A stretch of DNA of 64,000 nt from Vicinamibacterales bacterium. Its GTDB lineage: Bacteria > Acidobacteriota > Vicinamibacteria > Vicinamibacterales > UBA8438. Position 1 is the first letter of the stretch, and the number at the start of each line of letters is the position of its first letter. Position numbers and translations under genes: made by a program. Below, one piece after another: positions 40,602 through 48,592 of this stretch. The DNA is taken from positions 2,842,130-2,906,129 of the forward strand of contig OZ251506.1 of NCBI GenBank assembly GCA_965242835.1. Reading direction: 5' to 3'. The notes beneath the pieces are model-generated. The model saw nothing but the letters and a program-made list of their open reading frames with translations. It was not told where the DNA came from and did not search any database.

Positions 40602-40907
40602 TCAGGCGCTCCAGTCGAGCAGGCGGAGCACGGCGACGATCAGCCCGCCCACGGCGAGCATGCGCCACGTCAGATCGGCGCGAAGCTCGGCGAGCCCGGC
40701 CCTGAACTGATCGGGGCTCACGTGCTCGCCGTGCTCGGCGGCCTGCCGGACGGCGTTGGCGATGGCTTCGGCCTGCGCGGGCGTGAGGTCGGCGTCGGTC
40801 AACGCGCGGGCGACAGCGAGGGTGTCGAACAATCGGGCGCCTCCCCCCTGCCGGCCGGAACTGCCGCGGCCGGTCGTGTCGTGTCTTGCGGCGGGCACTT
40901 CACTCAC
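40602..40907 (-). CDS. DUF1640-like small coiled-coil protein with C-terminal TM anchor
   Basis: LFDTLAVARALTDADLTPAQAEAIANAV...LRADLTWRMLAVGGLIVAVLRLL. A partial paralog lies at 50509..50682. Confidence 0.65.
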   Translation of the reverse strand: MSEVPAARHDTTGRGSSGRQGGGARLFDTLAVARALTDADLTPAQAEAIANAVRQAAEHGEHVSPDQFRAGLAELRADLTWRMLAVGGLIVAVLRLLDWSA

Positions 40908-40923
40908 TGCAAGAATACTACGT

Positions 40924-41319
40924 TCAGTCCCATTCCTTCTCGACGCCGTGGCCGCGCGCCGGGTCGCCGTGCAGCGGGGTGACGAACCCCAGCAGGCAGC
41001 CGTCCGAGCCGTCCTTCAGCCGGTGGCAGCGCACCCGGACGGGATCTCCCGGCAGCACGAAGTCGCGCTCGATGCCGTTGCGGGCGAGCCCGGCGGGGTT
41101 GGTGGCCTCCAGGGCCCAGAGGGCGGGCTCGCCGCCGTCTCCGCCGGGCGCTTCCAGGAAGATCCAGGAGTGCGGGTTGATCCAGTGGACCTCGGTGACC
41201 GTGCCCTCCACGTGGGTGAAGTCGCTCAGTTCGTAGTTGCCGTGCGAATGGTGCGCCCCGGCCGGGACGACGAGGGAAGCCGCGAGGACGGCCGCGCCGG
41301 TCGGGATTCTGAAGGTCAT
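40924..41319 (-). CDS. DUF6152-like secreted protein
   Basis: Internal start MTFRIPTGAAVLAASLVVPAGAHHSHGNYE...GTVTEVHWINPHSWIFL. The signal peptide plus AHHS...NPH pattern is what I remember for DUF6152. Confidence 0.65.
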   Translation of the reverse strand: MTFRIPTGAAVLAASLVVPAGAHHSHGNYELSDFTHVEGTVTEVHWINPHSWIFLEAPGGDGGEPALWALEATNPAGLARNGIERDFVLPGDPVRVRCHRLKDGSDGCLLGFVTPLHGDPARGHGVEKEWD

Positions 41320-41320
41320 G

Positions 41321-41977
41321 TCAGCGGACTCGGGGAGGCGGAGGAAAGCCGTTGGTGTACACCGACTCGTAGCGGATGCCGGCGCCGCCGGCGTCCAGGA
41401 AGCGCAGCGACTGCTGGAACAGTTCCGGCCCCGGCCGGCCCGCGGGCGCCGTCGCCTCGAGGACGTACAGGCGGTTCTCGTGCATGTAGACGGCCGCGAA
41501 CGTGCGGGAGCCGTCCGCGTTGGTGAGCTGCAGGTGGCGTCCCTCGACGAGATCGACGAAGTTCCAGCCGAAGAACGTCGGCCTCGCGCCCCGCCGCAGG
41601 AAGCGCCAGACCGCGTACTCCGGGGCGCCGCGCACGTCGACGATCCACGACCCGACGCCCGTGTAGGACGCGCCCGTGCAGCCGGTGTGCGCGTCGGGAG
41701 GGCAGTTCCGCGCGCGCTCCGCATGGATCCGCTCGGCGTCCGTGTAGTCGGCCACGGTCACCGAGTAGCGGATCGGGCCGTCCTCGCAGGCGTGGATCCG
41801 GGCCGGGAACTCGGCCTCGTACTCCGACGTCCAGGTGGTCTCCTCCACGGACGGTTCGCAGGGCAGGTTGACGCTGAAGAAGTCCGCCCGGCTGGCGTGC
41901 TCCGTCCAGCCCTGGGTGAAGAGCGGCCCCGGTGCTCCGAGGAGCAACAGCGCCGGAACGAGTCGCATCGGACGCAC
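41321..41977 (-). CDS. Hypothetical secreted protein (218 aa)
   Basis: Signal peptide MRLVPALLLLGAPGPLFTQG; balanced composition with four Cys. Its stop abuts the start of the next gene. Confidence 0.65.
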   Translation of the reverse strand: MRPMRLVPALLLLGAPGPLFTQGWTEHASRADFFSVNLPCEPSVEETTWTSEYEAEFPARIHACEDGPIRYSVTVADYTDAERIHAERARNCPPDAHTGCTGASYTGVGSWIVDVRGAPEYAVWRFLRRGARPTFFGWNFVDLVEGRHLQLTNADGSRTFAAVYMHENRLYVLEATAPAGRPGPELFQQSLRFLDAGGAGIRYESVYTNGFPPPPRVR

Positions 41978-42046
41978 GGCTTCACCTCCGTTCGACAGCC
42001 GCCGGCGTGTCCGCCCGCGCCGCGTTCGCCGGAAGGCGGTGAACGG

Positions 42047-42587
42047 TCACTCTCCGACGTGCGGCCGGAGGCGCGCGTGGAAGTCCCGCTCGCTGGCGCA
42101 GGCGAGCGCCGCGGCGAAGACGACGCGGCCGGGCACGCCGTCCGGGATGCCGGTGATCGAGTCCACCGAACAGGGGATGCCCCGCGCCCGCAGCACGTCG
42201 CGCACCGCCTCCGCCCGGCCTTCCGCCCGGCCCTTCGCCTCGCCCTCCGCGCGGCTCTGGTCCCGTAGCGAATACAGCAAGGGATCGTCGTCCGGCCCCC
42301 GTGCCGTCCCGTTCGCCCAGCGTCCGGCCCAGGTGCTCCAGACGCTGGGCGGGACTCTCGTGGGCCGCGGTGGTCGGCGAGCGGACCTGCCAGGCGGTCT
42401 CGGTCTCGGCGTCCCAGACCTCCAGCCGCCCCTCGTAGCGGTGGTACTCGCCGCGCGTCAGGGGAAACGCCTCGCAGCCGGCGAACTCCATCTCGGACAG
42501 CGGCGGCATCGGCACGGCGGCCGGCGCCCTGTCCGGCTTGCGCTTCGCGGGCGCGACCGATACGGGCGTCCAGGGCGTGAAGGCCAT
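42047..42587 (-). CDS. Small protein with Uma2-like N-terminal segment and DUF4351-like (EGEAKGRAEGRAEA) C-terminus; split by a C5-run frameshift at 42296-42300
   Basis: ORF 41982..42587 is sensible up to ...LGERDGTG; ORF 42047..42280 and its upstream frame continue PDDDPLLYSLRDQSRAEGEAKGRAEGRAEAVRDVLRARGIP. TATAAT (42598-42593) lies 5 nt before the ATG. Confidence 0.5.
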
Positions 42588-42799
42588 ACCGCATTATAGG
42601 CCGCGGCATCCGCGGAGCAACCGATGTCGATCGGAGCGGGCGGTGATCGTCGACGGCCCCGGCCGGGAGGTCATCGCCGCGAGCGATGCCGGCATCGCGG
42701 CGCGTTGCCGCGGGCGCAGGCCGGGGATGCGGTTCCTTCGGCATGGCGGCGTGGTCCGGGTGCGGCCCGTTCGCGTGGCGCTCACGGGTCGAGGCCGCC

Positions 42800-44486
42800 G
42801 ACGTCGAAGAACGCGGCGTCCGCCGGCCTCGCCCTTGCGGCCCATCCGGTTCGGCGTCGCCGCGCGCCCGACCCACAGGGCGATCTCGAACGGCCACTCG
42901 CCCAGGCGCTCCGGCGCCCGTTCGCGTTCCAGCTCCAGGGCGCAGACCAGCGCGGCGGCCCGGCCGAGCTGATCGAGCGTCAGCAACCGCAACGTGTAGC
43001 GCATCAGCACCGACAAGCCCCGGCCGGCGTCGTCGGGACAGCGCAGGCGGCGGAGCGCGAGCGTGAAGGCCGCGAGTCCCAGATAGGCTTCCGTCTTGCC
43101 GCCGCCGGTGGGGAAGAACAGCGGGTCGACGACGTCGCGTTCGGGGTGCGCGGGGTCGGCGACGCCGCGCAGGTTCATCAGGACGTAGGCGAGCTGGAAC
43201 GGACGCCACGCCGGGGCGGCGACCGCGTGCGGCGGCCGCCCCTGCTCCTGCGCCCGCCGCCGGCGCGCGGCGGCGGCCAGCGCCCGGTTGGCGACGCGGA
43301 ACGCTTCGAGCACGTCCGGTTCGGCCAGCAGATCGATACCGGCCCGGATGCGGTCCGCGGCGGCGCCCGCCCGCCGCGCCAGCTCGTCGGCGACCTGCCG
43401 GCGGCGGCCGGCGAAGGCCGCCGCGGCCCGTTCCTGCTCCGCGACCCAGCCGCGGTACCGCTCCACCAGCGGTTCGAGGCGCGCTCTCGCGGCCCCGGCG
43501 CCATCGAGGCCGCCGAGCGCCTCCATCCCGAACTCCACGCCCTCGATGGGCGACGGCTCGACCCGCGGCACGCCCGCTTGCGGCATCCATTCGGTGCGGA
43601 CGCGGCGGCACGCGCCGTCGACGAGGTCGGCGCAGGTCGAGACGTTGTGGCCGACCGCGTACTCGGCGGCGTCGCGGTGATGCAGGTCGGCCAGGCGTTC
43701 GTCCCAGTCCGCGCTGTCCAGGCCGGTCAGGTCGCGGCGCGGCATCAGCGGGCGATCCGCCTCGACGCGCATCTCGACCTGGAACGCGAACGCGACGTCC
43801 TGCTCTTCGTCGTCGGAAGCCGGCGCCCGGCGGTTCACCGTGAACAGCGAGACCGCCCGGGCCTCCCGGAATCCTTCGAGCGTCCGCACCCGCGTCGGCC
43901 GCACGAGGCAGGCCACGGCGAGGCCGTCCGGCAGTGGGAACGAGGTCGACCGGCCGGCGGGGACGGCATCGAGGTCGACGGCCACGGCGCCCGCGCCGGG
44001 TCTGCGCCTCCAGGGCGCGAGGCGGCGCGAACGCCGGGCGCCGGACGCCACGACACGGCGACGTCAAGGCGCCGGGTCTCCGCGTCCGCCAGGATGCCGA
44101 GGCCCATCGACGACGGCAGGAAGCGCCGCTTGCGGCTGCCGCGATCCGGCGCGCCCGAATCGTCGCCGCCGTGGACCGGCTCGGCCGGCTCGTCGAGTTC
44201 CTCCTCGCTGTCCTGCGCCCGCTGCTCTTCCGGCGCGCCGCTCGGGACCAGAAAACCGGTCAGATACCACCGCGACGGCGCCTGCGGCAGGCGCTCGCGC
44301 TGCAGGGCCGCGTCGTCGGGCCGCGGGCCGAGCAGATCGATCCGCAGGGCGTCGCACAGGTAGCGCCGCACCGAGGCGCCGTCGGGCGGCGGGTTCGCGG
44401 AGGCCCGGGCGCGACCGGTATTCCGACGACCGCATCAGCCGCACCGAGGCGCCGTCGGGCGGCGGGTTCGCGGAGAGAGGGGGCAT
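42800..44486 (-). pseudogene. SF2 helicase remnant, DISARM DrmA-like (N-terminal region + Walker A only); 5-prime duplication, at least one frameshift, 3-prime truncated
   Basis: MPPLSANPPPDGASVR / RRYLCDALRIDLLGP...WYLTGFLVP...SSMGLGILAD (ORF 43835..44371), then the frame of ORF 42594..44051: AVSLFTVNRR, FFPTGGGKTEAYLGLAAF, MRYTLRLLTLDQL, EIALWVGRAATPN. Sense is lost near 42.8 kb. The lower boundary is approximate. Confidence 0.55.
44365..44475. repeat. Perfect 38-bp direct repeat (44365-44402 and 44438-44475), period 73 bp, inside the 5-prime end of the DrmA-like gene
   Basis: gccgcaccgaggcgccgtcgggcggcgggttcgcggag occurs twice. The 73-bp offset shifts the frame and puts a TGA after the first copy. 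Confidence 0.95.
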
Positions 44487-44659
44487 GATGGCGTCCGGTT
44501 TCCGCGCGCGGAAGCGCCCGGCGCCGACGCGCGTCGCGGGCAACGATACCGCAAGCGGCGCGGGCTGTTGAGGGGTCGGTCGACCGGCGGAGTCGCAAGG
44601 CGGCGATTCACGGCAGCCGGCGGGAGGGGATGTAGAATGAAGGGCCGGGAGCGAGAATC

Positions 44660-45118
44660 ATGACGACTGCAACGAGCAGGGAGCCGCGGCTGGCCGCCGA
44701 ACAGATTCTCTGGCTGCGGCGCGGGACGGAAACGACGCCGATGCACGTCCTGAAGCTCGTGTACATCAGCCACGGATGGACGCTCGGGCTGTACGGGCGA
44801 TCGCTCATCAACGAGCCGGCCGAAGCGTGGCGCTACGGCCCGGTGGTGCCCAGCGTCTACCACCGCTACAAGTCGTTCCGCGGAGACGCCATCACGACGG
44901 AGCCGGTGGACCGGTCGGACGCGTTCGACGACGAGCAGCGCGACGTCATCGAGCAGGTTCACGAGGTCTACGGCGACTTCACGGCCCTGCAGCTGTCCGC
45001 CCTCACGCACAAGCCGGGCACCCCCTGGGACGTCACCTACCGGGAATACGGCGCGGGCGTGATCATCCCGAACGAGTTGATCCGGGACTACTACGAGCGT
45101 CTGGCGGAGCAGGCGTGA
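44660..45118 (+). CDS. Panacea-domain (DUF4065, SocA/GepA-like) protein, putative PanA-type antitoxin
   Basis: MHVLKLVYISHGWTLGLYGRSLINEPAEAWRYGPVVPSVYHRYKSF is the DUF4065 core as I remember it; 152 aa. Confidence 0.85.
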   Translation: MTTATSREPRLAAEQILWLRRGTETTPMHVLKLVYISHGWTLGLYGRSLINEPAEAWRYGPVVPSVYHRYKSFRGDAITTEPVDRSDAFDDEQRDVIEQVHEVYGDFTALQLSALTHKPGTPWDVTYREYGAGVIIPNELIRDYYERLAEQA

Positions 45119-45393
45119 CGGCCCGCCGGGGCACGGTGGCCCGCGAACCGACGCCGGAGCCGCGGGCAGCCGCGGCGATCGCCGAGTTGAAGACGCTGAT
45201 CGGCGGCCAACGGGAGGCCACCGGCGACCTTCGCGAGCGCGTGAAGGGGCTGGAGTCCGAGTCGAAGCACTACGCGACCAAGGCCGATCTCGCCAACGTC
45301 AAGGTCTGGGCGATGAGCGGCGTCGTCGCCGCGCTTCTGTCGCTCCTCGTCGCTTTGGGCGTCGCGTTCGTCCGCCTGACCGTCGGCCCCTGA
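45115..45393 (+). CDS. Small coiled-coil protein with C-terminal TM helix (92 aa), GTGA-overlapped with the Panacea gene; candidate membrane toxin
   Basis: GTG 45115 overlaps TGA 45116-45118. ...IAELKTLIGGQREATGDLRERVKGLESESKHYATKADLANVKVWAMSGVVAALLSLLVALGVAFVRL. Architecture resembles DUF1640/XhlA-type proteins. Confidence 0.55.
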   Translation: MTARRGTVAREPTPEPRAAAAIAELKTLIGGQREATGDLRERVKGLESESKHYATKADLANVKVWAMSGVVAALLSLLVALGVAFVRLTVGP

Positions 45394-45579
45394 CGTCGCC
45401 TTGATCGGAACTCCTCGCCGCGGACCCCCGCCGAGCGACGCGGACGTCCGAGTCGATGGAACGCATTTACAAGGGGTCGATGCGGTGACGGTCGACTGCG
45501 AAACGCCAGAGGGTCGGATGCCCGGCGAAGAGCCGAAGCGGGTCCGGCGCGGTGACGATCCATGTTGGGAACGTTCTAC

Positions 45580-45607
45580 TTGACACGAAAACGGGACCTG
45601 CTATATT
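45580..45607 (+). promoter_or_regulatory. Sigma70-like promoter for higB: TTGACA - 16 nt - TATATT, with the ATG 6 nt after the -10 (leaderless geometry)
   Basis: TTGACA 45580-45585, TATATT 45602-45607, ATG 45614. Lies in a visibly AT-richer 220-bp intergenic region. Confidence 0.55.
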
Positions 45608-45613
45608 TTCGGA

Positions 45614-45907
45614 ATGCGGGTCATCGCGAAGAGGCCGCTCCGCGCATTATGGGAGCGCCATCCGGCAGCCAGGGAGCCGTTGCGCGCCTGGCTCCGGGAG
45701 GTTGAACGAGCGGACTGGGATACGCCGGCCGCGGTGAAGGCGCGGTACCCCGCGGCCAGCATCGTCGGCGGCGGCCGCGTGGTGTTCAACGTCAAGGGCA
45801 ACGCCTACCGGCTGGTGGTGAGGATCCGGTACGAGCTCCGCATCGTCTACGTGCGGTTCGTGGGCACGCACGCGGAGTACGACGCCGTGGACGTCGAGGA
45901 GGTGTGA
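45614..45907 (+). CDS. higB: Type II toxin HigB (HigB_toxin / RelE-fold mRNA interferase family)
   Basis: MRVIAKRPLRALWERHP..A...L.AW...V..A.W..P..VK..YP.AS.VGGGRVVFNVKGNAYRLVVRIRY....VYVRFVGTHAEYD matches the family pattern almost position for position. Confidence 0.9.
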   Translation: MRVIAKRPLRALWERHPAAREPLRAWLREVERADWDTPAAVKARYPAASIVGGGRVVFNVKGNAYRLVVRIRYELRIVYVRFVGTHAEYDAVDVEEV

Positions 45908-45909
45908 AG

Positions 45910-47121
45910 ATGGCCGACATCCGCCCGGTTCGGACCGAAGCCGACTACGAGACCGCCCTCGCCCGGATCGACGAGATCATGGACGCCGATCCCGACAGCC
46001 CCGACGCCCGGGAGCTCGACGTGCTGGTCGACCTCGTCGAGCTGTACGAGAGCAGGCACGAGCCGATGGGGCATCCCGACCCGGTGTCGGCGATCGAGTT
46101 CCGCATGGATCAGGCGGGGCTGAAGCGGCGCGACCTGATCCCGTTCCTCGGAAGCCGCGCGAAGGTTTCCGAAGTCCTGTCCGGGAAGCGCGCGATCACC
46201 ATGCCGATGGCGCGCGCGCTCCACGAGCACCTTGGGATTCCGGCCGACGTCCTTCTGCGCCAGTCCGGAAAAACACCGCGGGACGGGTCGGCGGACGTCG
46301 AATGGACCCGGTTTCCGCTCGAGGCGCTTGCGAAGCGCGGCTGGATTCCGGCCGTTCCCGACCTGGCGGCCCGGGCCGAACAGCTCGTCGGGGGGCTGAT
46401 CGAGCAGGCCGGCGGCCAGCGCGTGGCCGATGCCGCGCTTTACCGCAAGACCGACACCCTGCGCGCGAACGCCAAGACGGATCCATACGCGCTCCAGGCG
46501 TGGTGCTGGCAGGCGTTGGCGGAGGCGGCCGAAAGGCGGCCGGACGTCGACTACGCGCCCGGAACCGTGACGCTCGACTTCCTGCGGCAGGTCGCCCGGC
46601 TGAGCTGCTCGCCGGACGGACCGAAGCGGGCGCGGGAATTCCTGCACGGCAACGGCATACCCTTCGTCATCGTCGAGCACCTCCCGAAGACCTATCTCGA
46701 CGGCGCGGCGCTCCGTCTCGGCGACGGCCGGCCGGTGGTCGCGCTGACCTTGCGCCACGACCGGCTCGACAACTTCTGGTTCTGCCTGCTGCACGAGCTG
46801 GCCCACGTCGGCCGGCACCTGAACGCCGGAGACGATCAGGTGTTCGTCGACGACCTGTCCTTGCGCCGCCTCGAGGGCGGACGCCAGGACCCGCGGGAGA
46901 AGCAGGCCGACGAATGGGCCGAGGAAGCGCTCATCCCGCGCGAGGCGTGGGAAACCAGCGACGTCCGGGAACGCCCGACGCCGATGGCCGTGCTGAGTCT
47001 GGCGCAGGCGTTGCAAGTGCATCCGGCGATCGTCGCGGGCCGGGTACGGCACGACACGGGCAACTACCGGCTGCTGTCGCAGTTCGTCGGCACCGGCGAG
47101 GTGCGGCGGCAGTTCTGCTGA
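45910..47121 (+). CDS. Fusion of HigA-type HTH antitoxin (COG5499-like) with an ImmA/IrrE (COG2856) zinc metallopeptidase domain
   Basis: GAGGAGG SD. N-terminus IRPVRTEADYETALARIDEIMDA..P..PDARELDVLVDLVELYE..H.P....DPV.AIEFRMDQAGL...DL...LGSRAKVSEVLSGKR.ITM.MARALHE.LGIPADVLL. C-terminal half has FCLLHELAHVGRH (HEXXH) and E.QADEWAEEALIP. Confidence 0.85.
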   Translation: MADIRPVRTEADYETALARIDEIMDADPDSPDARELDVLVDLVELYESRHEPMGHPDPVSAIEFRMDQAGLKRRDLIPFLGSRAKVSEVLSGKRAITMPMARALHEHLGIPADVLLRQSGKTPRDGSADVEWTRFPLEALAKRGWIPAVPDLAARAEQLVGGLIEQAGGQRVADAALYRKTDTLRANAKTDPYALQAWCWQALAEAAERRPDVDYAPGTVTLDFLRQVARLSCSPDGPKRAREFLHGNGIPFVIVEHLPKTYLDGAALRLGDGRPVVALTLRHDRLDNFWFCLLHELAHVGRHLNAGDDQVFVDDLSLRRLEGGRQDPREKQADEWAEEALIPREAWETSDVRERPTPMAVLSLAQALQVHPAIVAGRVRHDTGNYRLLSQFVGTGEVRRQFC

Positions 47122-47133
47122 AAGGGTCATCCG

Positions 47134-47463
47134 ATGTCATTCTGGTCTGCCGAAACGCTTGCGAAGAAGCTGCCGGATCTGAAGCTGATCGACCCTTACG
47201 ATCCGGATGCCGTCGACTGTGCGGCCTACACGCTACGGGTGGGCAACGAGGTCTATGTCAGTCCGGATCAGAAAATCAAAAATCCCGACCGGCACACCAG
47301 GCGGACGCTGGCTGACAGGGAGTGCTTTTCCATTCCACCAGGGCAATTCGCGTTTCTCCTGACACAGGAAACCGTCGCAGTGCCGGACGACGCGATCGCT
47401 TTCCTGTCGATCAAGGCTCGCACAAAGTTTCGCGGGCTGATCAACATCTCCGGGTTCCATGTC
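47134..47463 (+). pseudogene. dCTP-deaminase/dUTPase-fold gene, 3-prime truncated (first ~110 codons only)
   Basis: YTLRVGNEVYV, IPPGQFAFLLTQETVAVPDDAIAFLSIKARTKFRGLINISGFHV, then the expected DPGF is missing and the frame reads antisense helicase sequence. Visibly lower GC than the surroundings. Starts 12 nt after the higA-immA stop. Confidence 0.7.
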
Positions 47464-47465
47464 TG

Positions 47466-48424
47466 TCCCTCGAGGACCTTCACGCCGCGGCAGAAGCGCT
47501 GCGGATCGAGGATCTCGAGCAGCGCCGAGAAACTGTTGGAATGGCCGTTGTGAGGCGTCGCCGACAGGAACAGCCGGTGCTCGAAACGCGGCGCCACGTC
47601 GCGGACGGCCCGCGTGGTCTGCGAGTCGATGGCGTAGCGGGCGCCGCTCGACGGCGCGGCGTTGTGCGCTTCGTCCAGGATCAGAAGGGACCGCGGGGCG
47701 AAGTCTCCGAGCCAGTCGCGCAGGCCGGCGGCCCAGGTCTCGTCGATCAGCAGCCGGTGCGAGACCAGAAACCGCGAATGCGTCGTCCAGGGGTTGACCG
47801 CGAAGCCCCGCTCGCGCCGCGTGCGCGTCACGTGCGCGCGGTCGAGGATGGTGAACGCGAGGCCGAAGCGCGCCTCCATCTCGTCGCGCCACTGTTCCAG
47901 CATGGCGGGCGGGCACGCCACCACGATCCGGTCGACGCGCCGGCGCAGCAGCAGTTCGCGGGCGATCAGCCTCGCCTCGATCGTCTTGCCGAGGCCGACG
48001 TCGTCGGCGATGAACAGGTTGACGCGCGGCAGGCGCAGCGCAGCGCCTTCCACAGCGGCTCGAGCTGGTAGGCGTCGATGCGGATCCCGGCGCGGAACGG
48101 CGCCTGGAACAGGTTCGGGTCGGTTGCCGTGACGCAGTTCCACGACAGCGTGCGCAGGTAGGCCGCGAACAGCGCCGGCTCGTCGAATTCCTTCCTGGCG
48201 ACGGCGCTCCAGCCGTCGTCGTCCAGGACCCGCGCGTCCAGTTCGTGCTCCCAGAGCACGGCCAGCGGCTGCCCCTGGGCGTCGTCGTCGAGACAGGACA
48301 GGCGGACGAGCGTCGCCTCGCCGTCCGCGCCGGGTGCCGAGACGTCCTCGACGAGGTAGCGGCGCTGTCGGACGAAGGCCACCCGGCCCGGTTCGGGAGC
48401 GATCCGGCGTTCGCGGCGGTTCAC
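47466..48424 (-). pseudogene. SNF2-family helicase remnant (DISARM DrmD-like): N-terminal region + SNF2_N only, 5-bp duplication frameshift, 3-prime truncated
   Basis: GTG 48424: VNRRERRIAPEPGRVAFVRQRRYLVEDV...RIDAYQLEPLWKAL (frame of ORF 47966..48943), then LRLPRVNLFIADDVGLGKTIEA...LLILDEAHNA...LFLSATPHNGHSNSF..LLEILDP (ORF 47268..48143). No helicase C-terminal domain. Confidence 0.75.
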
Positions 48425-48592
48425 GTGCGCGCGGATCGTATTACGACGTTCGGTACGAGGCCGCGCGGGAGCCGTAGCGGACTTCCGGCGAAGGGCGGCG
48501 CCGCTTCCGGTGGGGGCGGCGCCCCGGCTGGCGGAAGCCGCGGCGGACGAGTAGACTGGCGGGGCGGCTCCGGCCCGAACCATGCTCCGCTC

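What the first reader, a model, noticed from the sequence alone, without database searches (positions are those of the whole stretch)
45580..47463. HigB with a HigA antitoxin fused to an ImmA/IrrE metalloprotease, followed by a dCTP-deaminase-fold gene
- **Toxin:** HigB is canonical.
- **Unusual antitoxin:** Its partner is 405 aa. The first ~115 aa are the standard HigA/COG5499 HTH antitoxin; the remaining ~290 aa are a COG2856 Zn-peptidase with an intact HELAH motif.
- **Why it matters:** ImmA/IrrE proteases normally cleave a cognate HTH repressor in response to stress. Fusing one to an antitoxin suggests a built-in, signal-controlled way to inactivate the antitoxin.
- **Possible third component:** A dCTP-deaminase/dUTPase-fold gene starts only 12 nt downstream, but it is truncated after ~110 codons.
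Basis: partly seen in the sequence, partly recalled or inferred. Interest (0 to 1): 0.55.

Follow-up and report, generated by a model that had tools for sequence, protein, structure and literature searches.

The report
Known HigB plus HigA-protease defence pair
The HigB toxin gene followed by a HigA antitoxin fused to an ImmA/IrrE zinc protease is real and intact. It is a member of a large, already described family (the A and B genes of the E. coli anti-phage system PD-lambda-2), and the truncated dCTP-deaminase gene beside it is debris from a neighbouring gene cluster, not a third component.

Summary
**Observation: confirmed.**
- higB is 45614-45907 (PF09907, E 5e-31).
- A 403-aa gene follows at 45910-47121. 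Residues 1-117 match E. coli K-12 HigA. The C-terminal part is an M78 (ImmA/IrrE) peptidase with invariant HEXXH and Glu330.
- A Dcd-fold ORF starts 12 nt later and loses homology after codon ~111 of 227.

**The architecture is not new.**
- Both proteins match the PADLOC models PD-Lambda-2_A (1e-41) and PD-Lambda-2_B (3.4e-141) end to end.
- Makarova 2009 described RelE-family toxins next to Xre-COG2856 fusions.
- Vassallo 2022 showed PD-lambda-2 gives abortive-infection defence, that B alone is toxic, and that A neutralises it.
- The fusion has over 6,000 homologues and 622 clusters at 50% identity (E ≤ 1e-30). HigB lies directly upstream in 79 of 80 genome loci across more than ten phyla.

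**The dcd gene does not belong to the pair.**
- It is absent from 80/80 genome loci.
- Intact copies travel with a TIR-Nmad2-MazG_C cluster, with or without higB.
- Here a deletion joined it to a truncated DISARM drmD.
- The canonical third gene, PD-lambda-2C (Beta_protein), is absent.

**Verdict:** ordinary new member of a known kind. The protease's role remains unresolved.

The parts
45580..45607 (+). Sigma-70-type promoter, TTGACA-16 nt-TATATT (11 of 12 matches, with TG before the -10). The -10 ends 6 nt before the higB ATG, so the transcript is probably leaderless or nearly so.
   Evidence: One search found two promoter-like sites in 4.4 kb against 0.3 expected. The upstream sequence is conserved at a fixed distance from the start codon across related loci. 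The transcription start itself is inferred, not measured.
45567..45572 (+). GGGAAC box 1, at -47 from the higB start codon. Candidate operator half-site for the HigA-like HTH.
   Evidence: GGGANC starts at -47/-46 in 49 of 77 loci. 71 of 77 loci have at least one box and 47 of 77 have at least two. Binding has not been tested.
45593..45598 (+). GGGACC box 2, at -21, inside the promoter spacer. Candidate second operator half-site.
   Evidence: GGGANC starts at -21/-20 in 46 of 77 loci.
45614..45907 (+). higB (PD-lambda-2_A type), 97 aa. RelE-superfamily ribosome-dependent mRNA endonuclease of the E. coli K-12 HigB/YgjN type.
   Evidence: PF09907 E 5.4e-31. PADLOC PD-Lambda-2_A E 1.1e-41, profile 1-97 of 97. 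PDB 5ifg_A E 5e-7. The FN(V/I)KGN.YRL and GTHAEYD motifs are at least 90% conserved in 83 sequences and shared with E. coli HigB.
45910..46260 (+). Fusion protein residues 1-117: HigA-like antitoxin part, comprising the N-terminal HigB-binding helices and the XRE helix-turn-helix.
   Evidence: PDB E. coli HigA, residues 8-114 against 20-130. Foldseek 6kmq_B and 6jq4, probability 1.0, 30% identity. HTH_31 and HTH_3 match residues 69-117.
46261..46308 (+). Fusion protein residues ~118-133: variable, low-confidence linker between the HigA part and the protease part. This is the most plausible site for a cleavage that would separate the two.
   Evidence: pLDDT is below 50 for residues 119-128. The consensus is poorly defined here. 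The cleavage itself is pure inference from where ImmA, IrrE and CapP cut their repressors.
46309..47121 (+). Fusion protein residues ~134-403 plus the stop codon: a helical region followed by the ImmA/IrrE (M78, COG2856) zinc metallopeptidase. HELAH lies at 46792-46806 and Glu330 at 46897-46899.
   Evidence: PF06114, 22.6 bits, residues 275-378. PADLOC PD-Lambda-2_B E 3.4e-141, residues 3-404 against profile 1-396 of 402. Foldseek CapP 7t5t probability 1.0, PprI 8slm, IrrE 3dti. H295, E296, H299 and E330 are invariant in 62 sequences.
47134..47466 (+). 5' half (codons 1 to ~111 of ~227) of a Dcd/dUTPase-fold dCTP-deaminase-like gene. It is a pseudogene fragment and a remnant of neighbouring cargo, not a component of the pair. 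The nominal ORF runs on to 47553 by reading antisense through drmD.
   Evidence: PF22769, profile positions 3-103 of 153. 80% identical to L082 DCD residues 1-113. blastn homology to L082 ends at 47469. Sequence comparison.
47463..47470 (.). Deletion or rearrangement junction where the 3'-truncated dcd meets the 3'-truncated, convergent drmD.
   Evidence: Searches place the end of dcd homology. One search places the end of DrmD homology at residue ~223 of the minus-strand ORF, about 47475. Read-level support could not be checked.
47470..48560 (-). Context, not part of the module: N-terminal ~311 of 1021 residues of the DISARM SNF2 helicase DrmD, with an internal frameshift.
   Evidence: NCBIfam NF038317 positions 119-311 and positions 2-123 in another reading frame.

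Best explanation
**What it is**
- Window 45553-47121 carries an intact, horizontally acquired two-gene module of the PD-lambda-2 A/B type.
- It consists of a HigB RNase toxin gene followed by a 403-aa protein.
- That protein joins a complete HigA antitoxin/HTH domain to an ImmA/IrrE-family zinc metallopeptidase.

**Shown here**
- The family membership of both proteins.
- Integrity of all conserved residues.
- Strict higB-fusion gene linkage across phyla.
- A strong promoter abutting the higB start codon, with two conserved GGGANC boxes.

**Inferred mechanism**
1. The HigA part binds and neutralises HigB.
2. As a dimer, it represses the promoter through the GGGANC boxes.
3. In the resting A-B complex the protease is held inactive. 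This fits the E. coli result that B alone is toxic and A rescues it, so inhibition is mutual.
4. On a trigger such as phage infection or DNA damage, the M78 domain cuts an XRE-type HTH chain just after the HTH, as ImmA, IrrE and CapP do. Here that is most likely its own or its dimer partner's linker (residues ~118-133).
5. This lifts repression and frees HigB, which arrests translation (abortive infection or addiction).

**What is not part of it**
- The dcd fragment is the stump of a neighbouring DCD-TIR-Nmad2-MazG_C cargo cluster.
- That cluster was lost in a deletion that also truncated a DISARM drmD.
- The pair survives intact amid pseudogenes, as an addictive module would.
For: **Identity**
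- assign both proteins to their families.

**Family size and full-length architecture**
- over 6,200 hits; the top 120 are all 401-421 aa.
- 622 clusters at 50% identity with E ≤ 1e-30; nearly all of the top 150 align end to end.

**Linkage**
- HigB is immediately upstream in 79 of 80 genome loci from Acidobacteriota, Binatia, Alpha- and Gammaproteobacteria, Nitrospirales, Spirochaetia, Chloroflexota and others.
- It is also upstream on RefSeq plasmids, as a bare pair.
- Eleven viral contigs carry the full-length fusion; their upstream genes were not examined.

**Catalytic residues**
- Conserved in the protease and in HigB.

**Promoter and boxes**
-.

**Flexible linker**
-.

**Experimental precedent**
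- PD-lambda-2 gives abortive-infection defence; B is toxic and A rescues it (PMC9519451).
- ImmA/IrrE/CapP proteases cut their HTH partners on DNA damage (10.1101/2022.04.27.489752; PMC2701414).

**dcd is not part of the module**
-.

**The pair outlasts its neighbours**
- drmA and drmD are frameshifted or truncated.
- The SMODS cargo is degraded in about 8 of 14 loci while higB and the fusion stay intact.

**Foreign origin**
- GC is 0.60-0.70 here against 0.73 for the window.
Against: - No experiment exists for this locus.
- Self-cleavage has never been shown for any PD-lambda-2B homologue.
- In E. coli, HigB-like A was reported as the neutraliser and not as a toxin. The RNase may therefore not be the killing activity.
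- The canonical third gene (Beta_protein), required for defence in E. coli, is absent here. Anti-phage function of the bare pair is unproven.
- The protein lacks the GAF-like sensor domain of IrrE and CapP, so the trigger cannot be transferred by analogy.
- The operator is inferred from conservation only. No palindrome was found in the window's own promoter.
- Only 16 of 77 loci pass a strict promoter criterion.
Confidence: 0.6

Rival explanations
1. **Gatekeeper model.** The pair is mainly a CapH/CapP-like transcriptional switch fused into one chain, with a toxin attached. It controls whatever defence cargo sits directly downstream in the same transcript. Candidate cargos are CBASS, the DCD-TIR-Nmad2-MazG_C cluster, and Beta_protein in E. 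coli. In this window the cargo has been destroyed.
For: - A CBASS-type cyclase (SMODS; PADLOC Cyclase up to 2.6e-128) starts 12 nt after the fusion stop in about 14 of 80 loci. A TM effector-like ORF follows it in seven of them.
- In sister contigs the cargo changes exactly at the stop codon: 100+129-aa ORFs in L081, DCD in L082, and unk166-TIR in L083.
- PD-lambda-2C is needed for defence but not for neutralisation.
- The protease fold is closest to CapP.
- Lau et al. report CapH-CapP fusions, including a vapC-like gene plus fusion in front of DISARM.
Against: - Many loci have housekeeping or no co-directional genes downstream: acyl-CoA dehydrogenase, PhyH, PPTase.
- Bare pairs occur on small plasmids.
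- The CBASS association is one lineage, with over 80% identical cyclases.
- CapH/CapP sit divergently upstream of their operon, not co-directionally.
- The cargo often decays while the pair stays intact.
Confidence: 0.25
2. **Reversed roles.** The M78 protease is the real toxin or effector and cleaves a host or phage protein. The HigB-like protein has become its inhibitor, docking on the HigA-like domain. RNase activity is secondary or lost.
For: - E. coli PD-lambda-2B alone is toxic and PD-lambda-2A rescues it.
- The protease active site is invariant.
- Makarova 2009 listed COG2856 as a predicted toxin.
Against: - HigB keeps the FNxKGN and THxEYD motifs shared with catalytically active E. coli HigB at 90% or more across 83 sequences. 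This would be unexpected for a mere inhibitor.
- Overexpression toxicity of a DNA-binding protease can be indirect.
Confidence: 0.2
3. **The first reader's three-gene system.** HigB, HigA-protease and the dCTP-deaminase-fold protein work together, and the window holds a broken copy.
For: - The spacer is 12-14 nt.
- Intact higB-fusion-DCD arrangements exist in L082 (227 aa) and L084 (245 aa).
Against: - No dcd homologue lies within 6 kb in 80 of 80 genome loci.
- DCD occurs with unk160-TIR-Nmad2-PIN-MazG_C but without higB/fusion in L085 and L087.
- L083 keeps the pair and the TIR cluster but has deleted DCD in frame.
- PADLOC has no model that matches it.
- The known defensive dCTP deaminase has a different fold: a kinase plus a Zn cytidine deaminase.
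Confidence: 0.04
4. **Inert relic.** The pair here is a leftover in a decaying island and does nothing.
For: Its neighbours (drmA, drmD, dcd) are pseudogenes. The canonical C gene is absent.
Against: - Both ORFs are full length with every invariant residue.
- The promoter scores 11 of 12.
- Third-position GC is 0.90-0.92, typical of coding sequence.
Confidence: 0.1

Closest known systems
PD-lambda-2 anti-phage system of E. coli ECOR42 (Vassallo et al. 2022, PMC9519451; proteins RCO93357.1, RCO93356.1, RCO93355.1)
   Same: - The gene order is the same, with the HigB-like gene first.
- The second protein has the same architecture: a HigA-like HTH followed by a C-terminal ImmA/IrrE peptidase of about 400 aa.
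- Both window proteins match the PADLOC A and B models end to end (1e-41 and 3.4e-141).
   Different: - No third gene of the Beta_protein (PF14350) family is present, and that gene is required for defence in E. coli.
- A truncated Dcd-fold gene follows instead.
- The host is a 73% GC organism, not an enterobacterium.
- No functional data exist.
E. coli K-12 HigB/HigA (YgjN/YgjM; PDB 5ifg, 6kml)
   Same: - The toxin belongs to the same Pfam family (PF09907) and has the same C-terminal THxEYD motif.
- The whole of HigA (residues 20-130) aligns to residues 8-114 of the fusion.
- The toxin gene lies upstream of the antitoxin gene.
   Different: The antitoxin here carries about 285 extra residues, including a zinc protease. 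Stand-alone HigA is about 25 times more common than the fusion among plasmid hits.
XRE repressor plus M78 protease switches: ImmR/ImmA (ICEBs1), DdrO/IrrE (Deinococcus), CapH/CapP (CBASS), and the CapH-CapP fusions that Lau et al. 2022 report with a vapC-like gene in front of DISARM
   Same: - An HEXXH+E metallopeptidase of the same fold is paired with an XRE-type HTH.
- Fusions of the two, with an adjacent TA toxin, are already reported.
- They are associated with defence islands, including CBASS and DISARM.
   Different: - There is no GAF-like sensor domain.
- The HTH part is a bona fide HigA that also binds a toxin.
- The module is co-directional with its downstream genes rather than divergent.
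- The DISARM genes here are convergent pseudogene fragments, not a regulated operon.
RelE/PIN toxin plus Xre-COG2856 fusion operons predicted by Makarova, Wolf and Koonin 2009 (PMC2701414)
   Same: This is exactly that class. A RelE-superfamily toxin sits next to an HTH-Zn-peptidase fusion, and the authors predicted a TA system with an added proteolytic regulatory layer.
   Different: Nothing of substance. This locus is one more instance.

Membership tests
PD-lambda-2 defence system | First gene encodes a HigB-like (PF09907) protein | tested here: met
   PF09907 E 5.4e-31. PADLOC PD-Lambda-2_A E 1.1e-41, profile 1-97 of 97.
PD-lambda-2 defence system | Second gene encodes a HigA-like Xre HTH fused to a C-terminal ImmA/IrrE peptidase | tested here: met
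   PADLOC PD-Lambda-2_B E 3.4e-141, residues 3-404 against profile 1-396 of 402. Domain evidence.
PD-lambda-2 defence system | Third gene of the P4 Beta_protein family (PF14350), required for defence | tested here: not met
   The gene after the fusion is a Dcd-fold fragment. The other ORFs examined between 38 and 53 kb are Panacea, a 92-aa ORF, drmA/drmD fragments and housekeeping genes. The rest of the window was not scanned. No Beta_protein was seen among the scanned downstream ORFs of related loci; the table listed only 25 of 33 families, and L084-L090 were not scanned.
PD-lambda-2 defence system | Abortive-infection protection against phage; B toxic alone and neutralised by A | not testable with these tools
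   Known only for the ECOR42 system.
Type II HigBA toxin-antitoxin (E. coli K-12 type) | RelE-fold toxin with conserved catalytic motifs, encoded upstream of and adjacent to its antitoxin | tested here: met
   The higB stop at 45905-45907 lies 2 nt before ATG 45910 and overlaps GTG 45904. Motif conservation. PDB match.
Type II HigBA toxin-antitoxin (E. coli K-12 type) | Antitoxin homologous to HigA over its toxin-binding and HTH parts | tested here: met
Type II HigBA toxin-antitoxin (E. coli K-12 type) | Antitoxin is a small single-function protein of about 100-140 aa | tested here: not met
   The protein is 403 aa and has a protease domain.
Type II HigBA toxin-antitoxin (E. coli K-12 type) | Autorepression through an operator in its own promoter | tested here: inconclusive
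   Conserved GGGANC boxes lie at -47/-46 and -21/-20 in most of 77 loci. There is no palindrome in the window and no binding data.
ImmA/IrrE (M78, COG2856) protease-repressor switches | HEXXH plus a downstream Glu zinc site in an M78 fold | tested here: met
   H295, E296, H299 and E330 are invariant. PF06114 scores 22.6 bits against a cut-off of 22. Foldseek matches CapP and IrrE.
ImmA/IrrE (M78, COG2856) protease-repressor switches | GAF-like C-terminal sensor domain, as in IrrE and CapP | tested here: not met
   The chain ends about 25 residues after the M78 core. The model shows only short helices after residue 383.
ImmA/IrrE (M78, COG2856) protease-repressor switches | Signal-dependent cleavage of the partner XRE repressor | not testable with these tools
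   The partner HTH is present in cis. The cleavage is inferred only.
CapH/CapP regulators of defence operons | Located upstream of the regulated operon and on the opposite strand | tested here: not met
   The module is co-directional with its downstream genes in the window and in related loci.
dCTP deaminase (Dcd, TIGR02274/PF22769) | Complete dUTPase-fold domain including the C-terminal catalytic half | tested here: not met
   Only profile positions 3-103 of 153 are present, equal to residues 1-111 of a 227-aa homologue.
Defensive dCTP deaminase (Tal et al.) | N-terminal kinase domain plus a zinc-dependent cytidine-deaminase domain, over 350 aa | tested here: not met
   The fold and size are different (for the definition; for the window protein).

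The most novel reading that the evidence does not exclude
**Proposed reading**
- The HigB/HigA-M78 pair is a portable 'gatekeeper' cassette.
- It is a self-repressed, probably leaderless operon.
- It addicts its host.
- It also gates transcription of interchangeable defence cargo spliced in 12-14 nt after its stop codon.

**Candidate cargos**
- Beta_protein in E. coli.
- A CBASS cyclase plus TM effector in about 14 of 80 loci.
- A DCD-TIR-Nmad2-MazG_C cluster in this lineage.

**What it would explain**
- Why PD-lambda-2C is needed for defence but not for neutralisation.
- It would also define a general toxin-armed regulator class for defence islands.
Probability: 0.22. Interest if true: 0.55.

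Novelty: new member of a known kind. Interest (0 to 1): 0.22.

Why it matters
**For annotation**
- Pairs annotated as 'HigB family toxin' plus 'ImmA/IrrE family metallo-endopeptidase' are PD-lambda-2 A/B homologues.
- In this sampling they were never followed by the canonical C gene, so tools that require all three genes may miss them.

**For biology**
- The open question is not this locus. It is what the protease in this very widespread, highly conserved family does, and why the E. coli B protein is toxic on its own.
- The family has 622 clusters at 50% identity. The closest homologues are 64-94% identical and come from more than ten phyla.
- The conserved promoter and operator layout and the variable cargo position noted here give concrete handles for experiments.

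**For this window**
- The pair marks a decayed defence island in which only the addictive module has survived.

Tried and rejected
1. **dcd as a third component.** tblastn of the fragment against 80 related loci gave 0 hits. Context look-ups showed that it belongs to another cluster.
2. **Any conserved third gene.** Clustering and Pfam/PADLOC scans of downstream ORFs found only one recurrent lineage-specific CBASS cassette. Everything else was heterogeneous, and no Beta_protein appeared.
3. **Fusion as an assembly artefact.** Rejected on the basis of thousands of full-length homologues and RefSeq plasmid annotations.
4. **Sequence-only PDB searches.** Single sequence and profile searches reached HigA but no M78 structure. 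The protease assignment needed Pfam, PADLOC and the fold search.
5. **Palindromic operator.** An inverted-repeat search of 45450-45650 found only a trivial palindrome inside the higB coding start. The conserved elements are directly repeated GGGANC boxes.
6. **RNA element or sRNA antitoxin.** Rfam found nothing in 40-50 kb at gathering thresholds.
7. **Functional link to the flanking DISARM genes, as in Lau et al.** Rejected. drmD is convergent, frameshifted and truncated at the junction, drmA is frameshifted, and no drmMI, drmB or drmC was seen among the ORFs examined in this stretch.
8. **Later mechanistic work on PD-lambda-2.** None is in the searchable library.
9. **Strict promoter test across loci.** Only 16 of 77 passed, so the leaderless reading is firm only for the window and its close relatives.
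Full report
**What is in the sequence**

The window is 73% GC. Three co-directional ORFs lie between 45.5 and 47.6 kb.

- **higB, 45614-45907 (97 aa).** It matches PF09907 HigB_toxin at E 5.4e-31. It matches E. coli K-12 HigB (5ifg_A) over residues 1-91.
- **Fusion gene, ending at 47121.**
  - The start is either GTG 45904, overlapping the higB stop, or more likely ATG 45910, giving 403 aa.
  - The ATG has a GAGGAGG 7-8 nt upstream, homologues are 401-421 aa, and the public gene call for this exact sequence is 403 aa.
  - Residues 8-114 align with residues 20-130 of the 138-aa E. coli HigA.
  - Pfam finds weak HTH_31/HTH_3 at residues 69-117 and Peptidase_M78 at residues 275-378, at 22.6 bits against a cut-off of 22.
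- **Structure model.** An AlphaFold2 model built on 62 homologues has pLDDT 80.
  - The first ~118 residues superpose on E. coli HigA (Foldseek probability 1.0).
  - About 180 C-terminal columns superpose on CapP (7t5t, probability 1.0) and on IrrE/PprI.
  - H295-E-L-A-H299 (46792-46806) and E330 are invariant.
  - Residues 119-128 are a low-confidence linker.
  - There is no space for the GAF-like domain of IrrE and CapP.
- **dcd-like ORF, ATG at 47134.** This is 12 nt after the fusion stop codon. It is Dcd-fold (PF22769, profile positions 3-103 of 153).

**It is a known system**

- PADLOC models PD-Lambda-2_A and PD-Lambda-2_B match the two proteins end to end, at 1.1e-41 and 3.4e-141.
- PD-lambda-2 was recovered from E. 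coli ECOR42 in a functional selection (Vassallo et al. 2022, PMC9519451). The paper reports:
  - gene A is HigB-like;
  - gene B is a HigA-like HTH fused to an ImmA/IrrE peptidase;
  - gene C belongs to the P4 Beta_protein family (PF14350);
  - the system acts by abortive infection;
  - B alone is toxic and A rescues it;
- The architecture was already noted by Makarova et al. 2009 (PMC2701414). They found Xre-COG2856 fusions next to RelE and PIN toxins and proposed a LexA-like proteolytic layer.
- Lau et al. 2022 report CapH-CapP fusions, including one with a vapC-like gene in front of a DISARM operon.
- No later mechanistic study of PD-lambda-2 is in the searchable library.

**How common and how tightly linked**

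- A word-indexed search returned over 6,200 homologues. The best 120 are all 401-421 aa and 69-94% identical.
- An exhaustive search of 50%-identity representatives gave 622 clusters at E ≤ 1e-30. Nearly all of the top 150 align end to end.
- Eighty genome loci were fetched, from Vicinamibacterales, Binatia, Alpha- and Gammaproteobacteria, Nitrospirales, Spirochaetia, Chloroflexota, Thermodesulfobacteriota, Gemmatimonadota and others.
- HigB lies immediately upstream in 79 of those 80 loci.
- RefSeq plasmids carry the bare pair, annotated 'HigB family toxin' plus 'ImmA/IrrE family metallo-endopeptidase'.
- Eleven viral contigs carry the full-length fusion.
- Among plasmid hits, only 22 of 542 records have the long form. 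The rest are stand-alone HigA. The fusion is therefore a minority form of HigA, but a large family in its own right.
- HigB keeps the FNxKGNxYRL and GTHAEYD motifs at 90% or more across 83 sequences, and these are shared with E. coli HigB.

**The dcd gene**

- No dcd homologue lies within 6 kb of the fusion in any of the 80 genome loci.
- The window's closest relatives are metagenomic contigs. DNA 45553-47469 is 91% identical to L082, and homology stops inside dcd.
- L082 carries the intact arrangement:
  - it runs higB, fusion, DCD (227 aa), a 160-aa ORF, ThsB-like TIR, Nmad2, PIN and MazG_C;
  - an HMUDK_hel gene follows on the opposite strand.
- The window fragment equals residues 1-111 of that DCD at 80% identity.
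- L084 also has fusion-DCD.
- L085 and L087 carry DCD with the same TIR-Nmad2-MazG_C genes but without higB or the fusion.
- L083 keeps the pair and the TIR cluster but has deleted DCD, leaving its first 12 codons fused in frame to the next gene.
- DCD is therefore a member of the neighbouring cluster and is dispensable for the pair.
- It is also not the known defensive dCTP deaminase, which is a kinase plus a zinc cytidine deaminase.

**Local history**

- At about 47463-47470 the dcd stump abuts the 3'-truncated, convergent DISARM drmD:
  - NCBIfam DrmD positions 119-311 of 1021 are in one reading frame;
  - positions 2-123 are in another.
- To the left lies drmA, split by a frameshift:
  - positions 2-126 fall in the ORF at 43835-44371;
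  - positions 148-573 fall in the ORF at 42594-44051.
- Between them sit a Panacea/SocA-type antitoxin gene (44660-45118) and an overlapping 92-aa ORF with a hydrophobic tail.
- Housekeeping genes flank the stretch at about 40.6 kb and 48.6 kb. No drmMI, drmB or drmC was seen among the ORFs examined in that stretch.
- GC falls to 0.60-0.70 across 44.6-47.5 kb.
- The higB-fusion pair is the only clearly intact defence-type module in a decayed island.

**Regulatory anatomy**

- A TTGACA-16-TATATT promoter (11 of 12 matches) spans 45580-45607. It ends 6 nt before the higB ATG, which suggests a leaderless mRNA.
- The upstream regions of 77 loci, aligned on the start codon, show GGGANC boxes at -47/-46 (49 loci) and at -21/-20 (46 loci). 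In the window these are 45567-45572 and 45593-45598.
- These are candidate HigA-domain operator sites. Only 16 of 77 loci pass a strict promoter test, so this remains an inference.

**What follows the pair elsewhere**

- The downstream genes are heterogeneous.
- The one recurrent case is a CBASS-type cyclase starting 12 nt after the stop, in about 14 of 80 loci. A TM-protein ORF follows it in seven.
- It is a single lineage with over 80% identical cyclases. It is intact in only five or six of those loci, while higB and the fusion remain whole.
- Beta_protein did not appear in any of the downstream scans.

**Mechanism**

- *Shown:* identity of both proteins, linkage, conserved active sites, promoter and boxes.
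- *Inferred:*
  1. The HigA domain neutralises HigB and represses the promoter.
  2. The A-B complex keeps the protease quiet, consistent with B alone being toxic in E. coli.
  3. A trigger makes the M78 domain cut after the HTH, most likely in its own or its partner's linker. This derepresses the operon and frees HigB.

**Verdict**

The architecture is already described and has been validated experimentally in E. coli. This locus is an A/B-only member with a destroyed neighbour, so interest is low. Residual value lies in the unresolved role of the protease and in the variable-cargo pattern.

Noticed in passing
window 40900-44371 (-) and 47470-48560 (-): Remnants of a class 1 DISARM system.
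- drmA is split by at least one frameshift. NCBIfam DrmA positions 2-126 fall in the ORF at 43835-44371, and positions 148-573 in the ORF at 42594-44051.
- drmD has an internal frameshift and is cut off after about residue 311 of 1021.
- No drmMI, drmB or drmC was seen among the ORFs examined here; housekeeping genes flank the stretch.
- The frameshifts could also be sequencing errors.
   Followed up: partly
window 44660-45393 (+): A Panacea/SocA-type antitoxin gene lies at 44660-45118 (PF13274, E 2e-19). It overlaps a 92-aa ORF at 45115-45393 that has a coiled-coil-like middle and a hydrophobic C-terminal helix. This is probably a PanA-type toxin-antitoxin pair with a small membrane toxin. 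Neither protein had a PADLOC hit.
   Followed up: partly
L082 4603-9724; also L083, L084, L085, L087: A recurrent gene cluster.
- Its members are DCD (about 220-245 aa; the L082 copy has a C-terminal transmembrane helix), a 160-aa unknown protein, ThsB-like TIR, Nmad2, PIN, MazG_C and HMUDK_hel.
- UDG appears in one case.
- It sometimes lies next to MmeI-like enzymes and to HTH/M78 pairs.
- It looks like an undescribed nucleotide-centred conflict system.
- One full-text search that combined Nmad2 with MazG, TIR and dCTP deaminase listed no paper containing 'Nmad2'.
   Followed up: partly
L023, L024, L026, L027, L030, L031, L037, L043, L044, L047, L049, L058, L068, L070 (about 7237 onward): A CBASS-type SMODS cyclase starts 12 nt after the fusion stop codon, followed in seven loci by a TM-protein ORF (SLATT-like by eye). 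It is a single lineage. Roughly eight of the fourteen copies are truncated or frameshifted, while higB and the fusion remain intact.
   Followed up: partly
window 45553-45613 and the equivalent region of L001-L083: The sequence upstream of higB is conserved at a fixed distance from the start codon across phyla: ...TTGGGAAC..TACTTGACA....GGGAAC...TATAT..ATG. This implies a leaderless or minimal-leader transcript and directly repeated GGGANC boxes about 26 nt apart.
   Followed up: partly
L083 3656-4156: This 166-aa ORF is an in-frame chimera. The first 12 codons of DCD (MSFWSAETLAKQ) are joined to the 160-aa gene that follows DCD in L082. It is an independent clean deletion of DCD in a sister lineage.
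   Followed up: yes
L081 640-2862; L082 1733-3051; L083 974-1981; L084 9010-10331; L085 4282-5606: Additional HTH plus Peptidase_M78 genes lie in the same islands, some with an Inhibitor_I42-like region and some fused. Several ImmA/IrrE-type modules therefore stack in tandem next to the HigB pair.
   Followed up: no
window 44600-47500: GC content drops to 0.60-0.70 against 0.73 for the window. The minimum, 0.597, is over the dcd fragment. This is consistent with recent horizontal acquisition of the block.
   Followed up: yes
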